Positions 7,578 to 61,233 of a stretch of DNA of 64,000 bases are shown here, in pieces (position 1 is the stretch's first letter; the number at the start of each line of letters is the position of its first letter). The translations under genes and the position numbers were made by a program. The notes under the pieces are model-generated. The model was not told where the DNA came from. It did not search any database and saw nothing but the letters and a program-made list of their open reading frames with translations. Source of the stretch: Octopus sinensis (taxonomy: Eukaryota); contig NC_042999.1 of assembly GCF_006345805.1 (NCBI RefSeq), positions 85,994,001 to 86,058,000 of the forward strand. The letters are read 5' to 3'.

Positions 7578-7972
7578 CCTTTCTACTATAGGCACAAGGC
7601 CTGAAATTTGTGGAGAGGGGGTTAGTCAATTACATCGATCCTAGTGTTTCATTGGTATTTAATTTATCGACTCCGAAAAGGAAAGGCAAATTAAAACTCG
7701 GCGAAATTTAAACTCAGGACGTAGCAACGGGCAAAATACCTATTTCTTTATTTCCCACAAGGGGCTAAACACAGAGGGGACAAACAAGGACAGACAAACG
7801 GATTAAGTCGATAATATCGACCCCAGTGCGTAACTGGTACTTAATTTATCGACCCCGAAAGGATGAAAGGCAAAGTCGACCTCGACGGAATTTGAACTCA
7901 GAATGTAGCGACGGGCGAAATGCCGCTAAGCATTTCGTCCAGCATGCTAACGATTCTGCCAGCTCACCGCCT
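7578..7972 (-). mobile_element. SINE family A dimer (full unit + head-less unit with a different tail)
   Basis: Two bodies joined at aaatac|ctatttc (about 7740). Confidence 0.85.
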
Positions 7973-7992
7973 TAATAATGATAATAATAATT

Positions 7993-8192
7993 ATTTCTGC
8001 TATAGGTACAACGCCTGAAATTCTGGGGGAGGGGTAAGTCGATTACATCGACTCTAGTACTCAACTGGTACTTAATTTATCGACCCCGAAAGGATGAGAA
8101 GCTAAGTCGATCTCAGCGGAATTTGAACTCAGAACATAAAGACGGACAAAATGCGGCTAAGCATTATTGCCCGGCGTGCTAACGATTCTGCC
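7993..8192 (-). mobile_element. SINE family A copy
   Basis: Family body and B box; head slightly truncated. Confidence 0.8.
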
Positions 8193-8569
8193 AAATAATA
8201 AATTTTTTTTTATATAATCTTGAATAAACCCGAATATCATAACATACGTTAAGGATTTCGCTTCTCCTATCTTGTATATATTCCACCTTAATAATTTTTT
8301 CTTTAACACTCTTACTCATCCTCTACCTCTTCATTTCTCTATTTTTCCTTCTTATCCATTCTTTTTTTCTCTCTTTCTCTCTGTCTCTATATACGCCAGT
8401 AAATTCTATCGACTATATATAAGTGAGCTGTCCAAGTTTTCAACAACCGCATTATTTCGAGTCCATGTCTGAAGACTTAAAAGTGGGAGACATCCTACAT
8501 TTCTATACATATATGTACATTTCTATTATGATTTTATTATATTTATATTGTTATTAATATCAATAATTA

Positions 8570-8856
8570 TCGGAATCGATAAAATAAGTACCAGTTGAAC
8601 ACTGGGATCAATGTAATCGACTGACCTCTCCTCCGAAATTACTGGCCTTGTGCCAAAATTTGAAACCAGTATCGAAGCAGCGAGCTGGTAGAATCCGTAG
8701 CATGCTGGGAAAATGCTTAGCGGCATTTCGTCCGTCTTTACGTTTTGAGTCCAAATTCCGCCAAGGTCGACTTTGCCTTTCTTTCTCTTCGGGGCCGATG
8801 TCATCAACTTCGACCCCACTCAAAATGTCTGACCCTGTGTCAAAATTTGAAACCAT
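8570..8856 (+). mobile_element. Two adjacent SINE family A pieces
   Basis: A 3' half (gataaaataagtaccagttg...ccttgtgccaaaatttgaaacc) followed by a copy starting gcagcgagctggtagaa. Confidence 0.75.
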
Positions 8857-10130
8857 TGTATTGTACTATATTTTATTTAGAGAGAGGCGAAGAAGTGCGA
8901 ATGAATTTCATTATGCTATAGGTATCTATTTTATCGACTATTTATCGGCAGGAATGAAATAAAAAGATACGGTTGGATTTGAACTAAAAACAGTCTGATC
9001 CAATATATTCAGTGAAGTTTCTACTGCGGTGGTGTACAGTTACATCAATCTGAACCTATTAAGTTTCGTATTTTCTTCTGCATTATAGAAGACAAGATAT
9101 ATTAATGATGGCGTCTTTTCGAATGAGGGATAACATCCCAGAGAAAGTGAAACGGCTTTAAAAAGCAACTCGAAACTTTTTATTGTACGATACTTACATA
9201 TGTCATATATATATTGATTACTTATCTTGATTGAAGGCGGTTCTGAATTGAATGAAGTGGCCTTAGGTTATAACAAATACTTTTTATCGAATTTGGAGAG
9301 ATGAAGGACAGAATGAGCCCCCTATTGGGTTTGAGATAATATTGATATTAAAATAATATTCTTATTCTCTTCAGGCGCTTCAATGAAACATTATACTCTT
9401 CCGTTATAGCTGTATAAACTAACACAATTTTAAGATTAGCAATACCATATGTTTCCAGATAATATTTTAAAATGTATTTTCGATCATCAAATCATAAAAC
9501 CGTTACTTTTTCTAAAATCAGAAATTCAGTCAATTAATGGCAGTATTTTTTCTTATATGAAGAAAACCCGAAGTTCAGCCATGTAAAACAAAACAAAATT
9601 AAATAGAAACAAAATGTGTTGACTCTGTTCCCAGCTGTGTTGGGGCGACCATATGTGAGACTAGTATTTATATTATTACAGATTTACAGATCCTTGTGTG
9701 TATCGTTTTTAAAAAGCTTTTATAAACACAATTTCAGTTCTCTTGGATATTTTTAGTTGCCTGTATGATTGTGCCCGATTGGCGAATTGATAAACAAACA
9801 GATACTTTTGTAATGGTAGGTGGGTATTTCTTTTAAGCAGTAGTGAAAGCCTTTTTAGGGATAATTTACAGCCAGAACAGTATTAGTAACAGAAACAATG
9901 CTTTGTCTTCTTTTCGTTTGGTTTTTAATGTTCATTGTATGTTGTGGATATTTACTCCGTGTGTTTAGGACGGTGAAGATATTGCCAATGATCAAACGCT
10001 GGACATTATCTATTTATCTTAAAGATAATAGATATGGTAGTTTATAATCACCAGACGTTGTTTTTAAGTTATTAAAAATTACACAAAATGCCACAGAAAT
10101 TCCAATCAAGAACATGTTTTATTCTTATTT

Positions 10131-10330
10131 AATACTGATTTAAAAATTTGACACAAGGCCAGCAATTTCGGGGAGTGAGTAAGTCGATTGCATCGACACC
10201 AGTATTCAACTGGCATTTATTCCGACTCCAGAAGGATGAACGGCAAAGTCGACCTCGGTGGAATTCAAACTCAGAACGTAAAGACGGACGAAATGCCGGC
10301 AGGCTAACGATTCTACCAGTTCGCTGCCTT
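10131..10330 (-). mobile_element. SINE family A, diverged
   Basis: Family body plus the tail type ccttgtgtcaaatttt. Confidence 0.75.
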
Positions 10331-58617: not shown

Positions 58618-58821
58618 CGTCTCTCTGTCTTTCGTCTCTCTCTCTTTCTCTCTCTGTCTTTCGTCTCTCTCTCTTTCTCTCTCTGTCTTTCTCTCTCTCT
58701 CTTTCTCCCTCGCTCCCCTCTCTCAGTACGTATAAATAAATAAAAAAATATATACTTATATATATATATATATATATATATATATATATATATATATATA
58801 TATAATATATATATATATATA

Positions 58822-59190
58822 CTAGCAGTATCGCCCGGCGTTGCTCGGGTTTGTAAGGGAAATAACTATAAAGCATTTTTAGAGAGTTATAGCCAAAAAA
58901 TAGCAAAAAAATGGGGAAAAAAATGATGGTAAATTTTTTTTGACAGTTAAAAAGGTCGAGTTGCGTCCCCTAGACAATCTGTGGTTTGTGTTTCTGATTG
59001 TCGACCCATGTCGAATTTATCGATCTTTTCAGAACTGGGGGAACTTTTCAAAATTTTCGCTGCGTTAGTTTTGAATTATGACATTGGGCTATGTGTGTGT
59101 CAAGTTTCATCAGAATCGGTTGAAAGCCGTGGTCAGAGTGAGGGTACAAGCAAACAGACACACAGAAACACACATAGACAAACTGCCGTT
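58822..59190 (-). mobile_element. Non-autonomous Helitron-like element, second copy, within (TA)n
   Basis: Highly similar to 10347-10733; 3' hairpin cccgagcaacgccggg plus CTAG. Confidence 0.85.
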
Positions 59191-59646
59191 TATATATATA
59201 TATATATATATATATATATATATATATATATATACATATTGAGCAATAACTGAACGTCACGCATCCTGACTTTTGTTAATAGTAAGTTTTTATATATTTT
59301 TTTGCGACTCTATCTTCTTTCTTTCTCCTTCGTCTTCATATTCCTTTTCTAGCATTCCAACTTCCTCTCTTCTCTCTCGTCCTCTCACTCATAATTGTAG
59401 ACTTTCTCCCTTCCTTCCCTGTTCTCTCTGCCGCTCTCACTCTCCCCCTGTTTCATCCTCCTTCCCCTCTATCTACTGCCCATACATAACCCGTGACTAA
59501 TTTTCCCACCTCTCTGTCTTTCGCCACCGGACGCTTACCTTGCCAGTCAACATCTAACACTTCGCTTGCTATTTCTCTTTCTATAGCCATTCAGGATTTC
59601 TTCCATGCGTTACCCATCATTCCCGTCTGCTTGGCCGAAAGACCGT

Positions 59647-59832
59647 ATTTCTTTTCTACTCTAGGCACAAGGCCCGAAATTTTTGTGGAGGAGGCCAGTC
59701 GATTAGATCGACCCCAGTGCGCAACTGGTACTTAATTTATCGACTCTAGGATAAAAGGTAAAGTCGACTTAGGCGGAATTTGAATTCAGAACGTAAAGAC
59801 TGACGAAATACCGCTAAGCATTTCGTCCGGCG
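59647..59832 (-). mobile_element. SINE family A, 5'-truncated
   Basis: Family body and tail ccttgtgcctagagtagaaaagaa. Confidence 0.78.
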
Positions 59833-59846
59833 GCCAATTGTTTTTT

Positions 59847-61233
59847 TTAGTAGTTCTTGTCAACTCTGCTGTTCCAAAGACACAAAAAGCACATATGCTC
59901 TGTGTAACCCAACTGCAACCCAAAAAGTAATGATACAACTTTAAGGTCACCACAAATATTACATATGTGGTCCTTATATTTGTTAAGTCTTAGCAGCAGT
60001 TCCATTGATTCATAAGTTTCATTAAGGCCAGTGGCATGTGTTACAAGTATTGAAAGTTTTTCATTGCCATTGTGCAGTAATATATATTTATTTATTGCCC
60101 ACATGGGGCTAAACGTAGAGGAGACAAACATGGACAAAGGGATTAATTCGATTAGATCGACCCCAGTGCGTAACTGATACTTATTTAATCGACCTCGAAA
60201 GGATGAAAGGAAAAGGCGACCTCGGCAGAATTTGAACTCAGAATGTAACGGCAGACGAAATACCTATTTCTTTACTACCCACAAGGGGCTAAACACAGAG
60301 AGGATAAACAAGGACAGACAAACGGATTAAGTCAATTATATCGACCCCAGTGCGTAACTGGTTCTTAATTTATCGACCCCGAAAGGATGAAAGGCAAAGT
60401 CGATCTCGGCAGAATTTGAACTCAGAACGTAACGGCAGACGATATACCGCTAAGCTTTTCACCCGGCGTGCTAACGATTCTGCTAGCTCACCGCTCTTGT
60501 CCATTAAATATTGTGCAGTAATATAGCTTTAAAGCTAGGTTTACTAGAGTCAATGAATAGTCTCCATTCTTTTGGCCAATCCTTTCCACCAGGCCACTGA
60601 TAACTTAGCAGAAACGATCGTTTTCCTCCTTTAAGTAAAATGATGAAAACTGCAGATGGCGATGGCAGAAATGGGAAATTTTGGTGCTTGGCTGGAGAAA
60701 ATTCTATTCTTGAAGCTAGGAACCAAGCAACACTGCCTTTTATTTTAGAAATTCCAAGTTGAGCACTAGTCATTTAACATCCGTTTGACTTAACAAATGT
60801 GGGGAACTAGTTGCATCTGGAACATATACGCCATATTTCCTATTTCTATATAACTAACAAAATCTTTAGATCAATTGCTGTTTTCAACAACCTCTCTACT
60901 AGACTATTACGTAGCGACCGACCGTTGGGCCGTTACTATGCCCTTATCTCAGTATTGCCAACTCGGAATAAATTTTATTGATCAGAATCGTTAGAATTTG
61001 TATATAATTAGCAGACAAAAATTGCTTTAACCTTGAAAAGAAAGTTACATATTACTGGCATTAAGCCGATTAAAACCAAAATCTGGACGTGGTAGGAAAT
61101 TTACTAGTAATTTGCATTTTACACAAAATCTAGACGTGATATACAAAAATCCAATTATAGATTTGAAATCAGTATACCAAAATTAGCTAGGAACACCTAT
61201 TAGGTCATCTGTAACAAAATCTATGTTTCCTAG
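59847..61233 (-). pseudogene. Decayed Chapaev3-like (CMC) DNA transposon
   Basis: EWRLFIDSSKPSFKAILLHN joins, across the SINE, to NGNEKLSILVTHATGLNETYESM..ICGDLKVVSLLFGLQLGYTEHMCFLCLWNSR. A terminal-type sequence lies at 61080-61233. The family name is from recall. Confidence 0.62.
60085..60494 (-). mobile_element. SINE family A dimer bounded by a single 16-bp TSD
   Basis: attgtgcagtaatata at 60069-60084 and 60510-60525; junction gaaatac|ctatttc at about 60263. Confidence 0.9.

What the first reader, a model, noticed from the sequence alone, without database searches (positions are those of the whole stretch)
7578..60494. SINE multimers always fuse at the same nucleotide, where the 3' end is complementary to the head
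Seen: four junctions (about 7740, 10887, 11071, 60263) all read, in SINE sense, ...aagaaa(t/c)a|ggtattt(c/t). The downstream unit lacks exactly the first ~48 nt. The junction is a palindrome (GAAATA-GG-TATTTC) because the tail end is the reverse complement of that head segment. The dimer at 60085-60494 has a single 16-bp TSD. At 7578 and 10734 the last unit has a different tail subfamily. Inference: either the RT jumps templates where tail and head pair (or uses a circularised RNA), or the SINE targets its own copies at a fixed site with a homologous 5' join. Either would be a sequence-programmed multimerisation route.
Basis: partly seen in the sequence, partly recalled or inferred. Interest (0 to 1): 0.7.

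Follow-up and report, generated by a model that had tools for sequence, protein, structure and literature searches.

The report
SINE that targets its own copies
A very common short jumping repeat has pasted new copies into older copies of itself at one exact base tens of thousands of times in this animal genome, likely because the RNA it is copied from runs on into the very sequence it then lands in.

Summary
The four junctions are real, and the same join occurs 36,785 times exactly in the genome. In 864 kb of unselected DNA, all 26 tail-to-SINE joins lay at head base +48 (21) or at a second site, +15 (5), so 'always' is slightly too strong. The multimers are mostly young copies inserted into older ones. 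In 26 of 26 dimers ending in an old C-type unit, that unit is the more diverged (14.3% vs 3.3%). The old units are unrelated to each other, and the heads are old/young chimeras. A minority of loci keep the old head plus a target-site duplication starting at +48 (156 exact matches). One tail variant goes with GG(TA) targets and +48; the other goes with AG(A) targets and +15. The most likely mechanism is target-primed insertion guided by read-through RNA that pairs with the nicked copy, with the 5' end usually joined by homology. The RNA guide is inferred. Tail-head pairing, circular RNA and a single dimeric master are not supported. The parts have precedents (R1/R2 read-through pairing, Alu self-insertion hotspots, SINE-derived satellites); ten literature searches did not find this combination at this scale.

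The parts
7741..7971 (-). Young A-type SINE unit (+1 to +231). Its head up to about +61 carries old-type letters shared with the last unit, so it is likely the old target's head.
7578..7740 (-). Old B2-type unit starting at +48 (core 18% diverged): the pre-existing target copy
11073..11303 (-). Young A-type full unit with a wholly young head; no outer TSD found for this trimer
10889..11072 (-). Young A-type 184-bp unit (+48 to +231)
10734..10888 (-). Old C-type unit starting at +48 (core 12% diverged, with a deletion)
60265..60494 (-). A-type full unit (core 2.5%, tail 3.2%, head 9.1% diverged)
60085..60264 (-). Older A-type unit starting at +48 (core 10%, tail 13.6% diverged)
60069..60084 (.). 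16-bp outer TSD, copy at the 3' end of the dimer
60510..60525 (.). 16-bp outer TSD, copy at the 5' end of the dimer (15 nt from the head)
6275..6523 (-). T-variant A monomer in non-SINE DNA. Its 9-bp TSD (6275-6283, 6515-6523) begins with GG right after the tail, the same preference at an ordinary site.
3714..3977 (-). C-variant A monomer with a 14-bp TSD (3714-3727, 3964-3977) that begins AAT

Best explanation
These multimers are young A-type SINE copies inserted into older copies of the same SINE superfamily at head base +48, likely by target-primed reverse transcription in which RNA read through from an existing multimer pairs with the nicked target. Shown: what follows the tail is target DNA from the first base after AAAGAAATA; targets begin GG(TA) for the T-variant tail and AG(A) for the C-variant tail; the last unit is as old as free copies of its type; heads are chimeric; some loci keep the old head and a TSD starting at +48; existing junctions are re-targeted. 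Inferred: a source copy that already sits at +48 has no run of four T inside the unit, so Pol III would read on and put the +48 sequence directly behind the point where the LINE RT starts. That extension would pair for 4-5 nt with any GGTA site and for much longer with another SINE copy. The cDNA end, being complementary to the old head, would usually anneal to it, giving a seamless 184-bp addition inside the old TSD. Each new junction would be both a new guide source and a new target. Some long near-identical arrays likely grew afterwards by DNA-level duplication.
For: Position: 21 joins at +48, 5 at +15 and 0 elsewhere among 58 A tails in 864 kb; no free copy starts at +48. Age: first/last core divergence 3.3/14.3% in A..C (26 of 26 last older), 3.7/13.5% in A..B2 (12 of 12), 3.5/8.7% in A..B1 (27 of 29); free monomers A 3.9, B1 9.4, C 15.0, B2 16.7%. 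Independence: last C units differ by 25.3% on average; only 1 of 325 pairs is under 8%, a local duplicate; B1 1 of 435. Heads: old-type letter at +36 in 13 of 26 A..C heads vs 2 of 42 A monomers (p 2e-5); mismatches at +4..36 are 2.6 vs 1.2 (p 0.006), with no excess at +48..80. TSD class: 156 exact matches; of 24 distinct loci read, 14 follow an old head and 10 an existing junction, 16 have a downstream junction, and 3 duplicate private variants exactly; 3 of 9 GGC-type loci repeat the target's own C on both sides. Tail-linked target choice, counted by eye in the first 100 listed: GG ends 97 T-variant; AG ends 75 C-variant; +15 joins 88 C-variant. Longer homology matters: 897 joins at the conserved antisense GGTAC site against 36,785 at +48, although the antisense site is the commoner (79 vs 29 in 864 kb); old targets with GGC are joined 24 times against 317 with GGT, though free old heads mostly have C (31 of 43). 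Precedent: flanking target sequence on read-through R2Ol RNA raises insertion (PMC6530143, passages); SART1Bm and R1Bm likewise (PMC7265360, passages).
Against: No RNA was seen and no partner LINE was found, so the guide step is inferred. Two LINE endonucleases with different preferences could give the tail-target link, and 5' homology alone could give the enrichment. Outer TSDs of A..old dimers are only suggestively older than those of young elements (8.2% vs 4.5% mismatch, p 0.09; score test p 0.39). About half of the A..old heads look wholly young, including window 10734, which also has no outer TSD; a template switch or a target deletion fits those as well. In A..A dimers the age gap is not significant (4.3 vs 5.5%, p 0.097), so many may be co-mobilised. 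10 of 24 last B1 units keep A-type letters at +61/+63 (monomers 2 of 12, p 0.26), which would fit conversion tracts. Outside the window, 0 of 72 old C/B2 copies in 800 kb were hit, so hits on the oldest types are rare. The TSD class is only a few percent (9 flagged of 127 arrays, some not true cases).
Confidence: 0.7

Rival explanations
1. Insertion into old copies is real, but the site is chosen by the endonuclease or by DNA structure, not by the RNA. Base +48 is exactly the first base after the loop of a predicted 13-bp hairpin in the head, and the junction rebuilds a small hairpin. Homology then helps only the 5' join.
For: The predicted stem +31..43 with +48..60 closes a 4-nt loop. The TSD start is sharp (0 or -1 in 32 of 48). 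Non-SINE matches fade after 4-5 nt, as an endonuclease consensus would.
Against: Target start follows a single tail variant (97 of 100 vs 25 of 100 T-variant). The +15 site has no such hairpin edge. The junction hairpin is weak (-1.8 kcal/mol with DNA parameters).
Confidence: 0.15
2. Seamless multimers arise by non-allelic gene conversion or cDNA recombination from junction-bearing donors into monomers, with one crossover in the head and one in the shared core.
For: Chimeric heads. T rather than C at +50 in junctions (317 vs 24). A-type letters at +61/+63 in 10 of 24 last B1 units.
Against: It cannot make the TSD class or the GG/AG preference at non-SINE sites. In unselected loci, 5 of 5 C/B2 last units and 14 of 24 B1 last units are already old-type by +61..63 rather than spread over 120 nt.
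Confidence: 0.08
3. RT jumps between or around RNA templates in one event.
For: Single outer TSDs. A few arrays have near-identical units (L064: 0-2%; 11 of 89 adjacent pairs under 4%). Some heads are wholly young.
Against: Most adjacent units are as different as random pairs (9.2 vs 10.6%). Last units are as old as silent genomic copies. Old-type heads occur on young units. Tail-head pairing is not predicted. No Rfam ribozyme match.
Confidence: 0.05
4. All multimers descend from one or a few dimeric master genes.
For: Co-mobilisation of A+A dimers from the last tail is expected and cannot be excluded for that class.
Against: Last units belong to four tail types and are mutually unrelated. There is no linkage of first and last units across dimers: Mantel p 0.79 (A..A) and 0.88 (A..B1); for A..C p was 0.002 with, and 0.11 without, one duplicated locus.
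Confidence: 0.02

Closest known systems
R1Bm, SART1Bm and R2Ol read-through RNA pairing with the target (PMC7265360, PMC6530143; passages read; the R1Bm paper itself was not held)
   Same: Target sequence carried downstream of the element's 3' end on the RNA pairs with the nicked site and fixes or improves initiation.
   Different: Those are autonomous LINEs with site-specific endonucleases and fixed host targets (rDNA, telomere). Here a non-autonomous, otherwise dispersed SINE has its own head as target, and the guide is regenerated by each hit.
Alu self-insertion hotspots and 'feedforward' model (bioRxiv 10.1101/2025.02.26.640385; passages read)
   Same: Sense-strand insertion into pre-existing copies at two hotspots, through pairing of the RNA 3' end.
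   Different: Alu hotspots are A-rich linker and tail (8-10-fold, about 11-14% of insertions). Here the sites are single non-A-rich bases in the tRNA-like head, subfamily-specific, follow about a third to two fifths of tails, and usually give seamless head replacement.
SINE-derived satellites of squamates (PMC10702118; passages and Discussion read) and TSD-(SINE)n-TSD arrays of the blood clam (PMC11481361; passages and section 15 read)
   Same: Arrays of a fixed SINE part, with a full head at one end inside one TSD.
   Different: Those papers invoke unequal recombination and homogenisation. Here units are mostly of separate origin and age, end with a complete tail, and show insertion TSDs.
Octopus tRNA-derived SINEs OR1/OR2 (named as CORE-SINEs in PMC4824008, PMC4758252, PMC5804259; sequence resemblance recalled, not tested)
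   Same: tRNA-like head, shared core and exchangeable tails, at very high copy number.
   Different: No reference sequence was available to confirm identity; the passages seen say nothing of multimers.
L1/Alu cDNA joining to a pre-existing copy and Alu gene conversion (recalled; a search found no paper)
   Same: The 5' end is resolved by homology to an endogenous copy, giving chimeras without a new TSD.
   Different: Reported as rare events; here it appears to be the usual outcome at a programmed site.

Membership tests
tRNA-derived SINE mobilised by TPRT | Short, non-coding, high-copy element with variable-length TSDs | tested here: met
   231-nt unit; 98,354 tail matches; TSDs at 18 of 30 GG-end loci and 14 of 30 AG-end loci
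tRNA-derived SINE mobilised by TPRT | tRNA-derived head with Pol III boxes | tested here: inconclusive
   Box A- and B-like motifs are seen by eye and the head folds with paired ends, but Rfam gave no tRNA match at E up to 5
tRNA-derived SINE mobilised by TPRT | Tail shared with a partner LINE | tested here: inconclusive
   7 tail-only A hits of 593 in held loci; by eye none looked like a LINE end; upstream DNA was not translated
Octopus OR1/OR2 CORE-SINE | Identity to the published consensus and CORE domain | not testable with these tools
   No sequence found in the two supplements searched; a third file could not be searched
Dimeric SINE family (Alu-like single master) | Fixed pair of units amplified together | tested here: not met
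   Last units are of four types, unrelated and unlinked
SINE-derived satellite | Tandem units of one fixed SINE part with an extended terminal unit | tested here: met
   184-bp units in arrays of up to 9
SINE-derived satellite | Homogenised units from DNA-level amplification | tested here: not met
   Only 11 of 89 adjacent pairs are under 4% divergence; it holds for a few long arrays only
Retrozyme / circular-RNA retroelement | Self-cleaving ribozyme in each unit | tested here: not met
   No ribozyme family at E up to 5 in window 10700-11340; an undescribed fold is not excluded
Retrozyme / circular-RNA retroelement | Circular RNA intermediate | not testable with these tools
   Needs RNase R data
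Site-specific non-LTR elements (R1/R2 type) | Insertion at one base of a repeated target with a TSD or homologous 5' join | tested here: met
Site-specific non-LTR elements (R1/R2 type) | Own sequence-specific endonuclease and near-exclusive target | tested here: not met
   Non-coding; 32 of 58 tails end in non-SINE DNA
Site-specific non-LTR elements (R1/R2 type) | Read-through RNA pairs with the target | not testable with these tools
   Inferred from the tail-variant/target link

The most novel reading that the evidence does not exclude
A natural RNA-programmed insertion loop: the 3' read-through of a SINE acts as a primer-binding guide for a promiscuous LINE machine. Two SINE lineages each carry their own heritable target address (+48 or +15 of the SINE head), overwrite old heads with working ones, and build tandem arrays one insertion at a time.
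Probability: 0.55. Interest if true: 0.72.

Novelty: new variant of a known kind. Interest (0 to 1): 0.6.

Why it matters
It gives a retrotransposition-driven route to SINE multimers and SINE-derived satellites, which are usually put down to unequal recombination, and a route to the head/tail mosaics of SINE evolution. If the RNA extension is the guide, the unknown partner LINE can be re-aimed by a few bases of RNA and finishes by homology. That is directly testable and relevant to RNA-templated gene insertion. It also means that copy counts and age landscapes of this family mix two ages at one locus.

Tried and rejected
Orthologous alleles: four public runs laid on window 7000-12200 were swamped by other SINE copies, no piece spanned a multimer, and the relatives were only about 1% diverged; uninformative. 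Expression: no RNA holder listed. Ribozyme at +48: no Rfam match. RNA cleaved at +48 giving free truncated copies: none among 173 elements. GG supplied by the RNA only: rejected, because the 5' TSD copy also begins GG in 16 of 18 loci. A C before the cut: seen in a first small set, not upheld (A6 T6 C5 G1). Outer-TSD age test: not significant. Mantel signal in A..C: lost significance (p 0.11) once one duplicated locus was dropped. Partner LINE: not found in held loci. The three 'after tail' antisense hits come from a loose motif and are probably point mutations, so they were not used. Two papers wanted for priming and R1Bm were not held. Ten literature searches found no description of this junction; Repbase, Dfam, SINEBase and the 1994 octopus paper could not be seen and may annotate the multimer. 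bioRxiv supplements were closed.
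Full report
Observation. The window holds about 17 copies of one SINE superfamily. The window lies on C3 of a 2.72-Gb genome, and the 19-nt junction occurs 36,785 times there with 0 control matches. The element resembles octopus OR-type SINEs from memory; I could not test this.

Anatomy. From 864 kb of unselected DNA (80 stretches plus the window) and targeted loci I derived four types that share head and core but differ in tail: A (231 nt, young), B1, B2 and C. 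Of 58 A tails in the unselected set, 32 end in non-SINE DNA, 21 join a unit at +48 and 5 join at +15; none joins elsewhere. In the first 100 tails listed genome-wide I counted by eye 43 at +48, 5 at +15, 2 at other repeat positions and 50 in other DNA (the list comes from the start of C1, and the pattern favours junctions). No free copy begins at +48. Arrays have a 184-bp period and up to 9 units.

The last unit is an older target. Core divergence (+70..166, CpG and polymorphic sites excluded), first vs last unit: A..C 3.3 vs 14.3% (26 of 26 last older), A..B2 3.7 vs 13.5% (12 of 12), A..B1 3.5 vs 8.7% (27 of 29) and A..A 4.3 vs 5.5% (17 of 26, p 0.097). Free monomers are A 3.9, B1 9.4, C 15.0 and B2 16.7%. 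Most C and B2 cases came from a pattern that fixed old-type letters at +57..68, outside the region measured. The A..C set includes two loci with a visible old head upstream and one duplicated pair. Last units are unrelated to each other and unlinked to first units, which excludes a single dimeric master for these classes.

The head is a chimera. At +36, 13 of 26 A..C heads carry the old letter against 2 of 42 A monomers and 37 of 43 C monomers, while +50 and +59 are young in 24 and 25 of 26. Mismatches are raised at +4..36 (2.6 vs 1.2, p 0.006) but not at +48..80. At window 7578 the first unit shares old letters with the last unit up to +61; at 10734 the head is wholly young. Outer TSDs of A..old dimers mismatch at 8.2%, like old monomers (8.1%) and above young elements (4.5%), but p is 0.09.

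Direct insertion footprints. A pattern for +48 sequence followed within 12 nt by a new head matches 156 places. The 30 loci fetched collapse to 24: 14 follow an old head and 10 follow an existing tail-to-+48 junction; 16 have a downstream junction; and three (L237, L253, L255) repeat private variants exactly on both sides of the insert. With GGC in place of GGT there are 9 places, and L341-L343 repeat the target's C on both sides. These are ordinary TSDs that start at +48. They make up a few percent of arrays (9 flagged of 127); the rest are seamless.

What chooses the site. TSDs of A elements begin at the first base after the tail, or one before it, in 32 of 48 cases. At non-SINE sites the target copy reads G 16, G 18, T 16, A 14 and T 9 of 18 for GG ends, and A 12, G 14, A 9, A 10 of 14 for AG ends (the first two letters were selected on the 3' copy). 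The tail letter at +219 predicts the target: T in 97 of 100 GG ends, C in 75 of 100 AG ends and in 88 of 100 +15 joins (by eye). Four bases do not explain the hotspot. The antisense GGTAC site in the core is commoner than the +48 11-mer (79 vs 29 in 864 kb) but has 897 joins against 36,785 (the latter count includes array growth and co-mobilised dimers). Outside the window, hit/free copies were A 9/26, B1 2/10, B2 0/25 and C 0/47, against at most 10 GG ends per 4,349 GGTA sites. Old targets join 317 times with GGT and 24 times with GGC.

Mechanism. I infer that multimeric source copies are read through, so that the RNA carries +48 (or +15) sequence directly behind the RT start. This pairs with a nicked target, best with another copy. 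The cDNA end then usually anneals to the old head. R2Ol insertion rose from 12% to 96% when the flanking target on the RNA was lengthened from 4 to 100 nt (PMC6530143, passages); SART1Bm and R1Bm behave alike (PMC7265360, passages). The main rival is site choice by endonuclease or structure: +48 is the first base after the loop of a predicted 13-bp head hairpin.

Tail-head pairing has probability 0.0 in the folded monomer and the local palindrome about 0.14; the +15 join has none. Adjacent A units differ by 9.2% (n 89) against 10.6% for random pairs, and only 11 pairs are under 4%, so rolling-circle copying can explain a few arrays at most; later DNA duplication explains those equally well. 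The palindrome may have helped to make the first junction or to re-target it; this is untested.

Known and new. SINE-derived satellites (PMC10702118) and clam SINE arrays (PMC11481361) have a similar layout and are ascribed to unequal recombination. Alu self-insertion hotspots are A-rich (bioRxiv 10.1101/2025.02.26.640385). Ten searches found no account of this junction or of subfamily-specific, single-base self-targeting, but repeat databases and the 1994 octopus paper were out of reach. Verdict: a new variant of known TPRT behaviour. Insertion into old copies is well supported (about 0.85); the RNA-guide step is likely but unproven (overall 0.7). Interest 0.6.

Noticed in passing
L239-L247, L259 (G000:C1:194.2-195.6 Mb, C2:197.9 Mb); G000:C7:15322786-15323080: Tandem arrays of a 65-66-bp head-only unit (+1 to about +63 plus AA), probably grown from the direct repeat made by a TSD-class insertion.
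   Followed up: partly
L011:7318-7692, L026 (minus strand), L025, L068, L069; window 7975-8193 and 8570-8799: Old B/C copies often lie head-to-tail as full units separated by a shared TSD, i.e. re-insertion into the upstream TSD; a third multimer route.
   Followed up: partly
L064, L110, L130, L228: Long arrays (6-9 units) with near-identical units; secondary expansion or assembly effects.
   Followed up: partly
L153, L195: A B1 tail also joins a downstream unit at +15, so the behaviour is not limited to A tails.
   Followed up: no
L135, L228, L154: Minor sense joins at about +122 and +154-157, both at GAT A-like starts.
   Followed up: no
L341: Three full A units with a 245-bp period inside one +48 TSD.
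   Followed up: no
L141 and L142 (G000:C1:103.20 Mb): A local inverted duplication, about 7 kb apart, that carries the same A..C dimer.
   Followed up: partly
window 788-1316, 7229-7493, 10300-10730, 56504-56936, 62619-62996: Other repeat families, several very deep in laid runs; not identified.
   Followed up: no
G000:C1:9068089: An A tail joined by AAATAAG overlap into a different repeat family's core.
   Followed up: no
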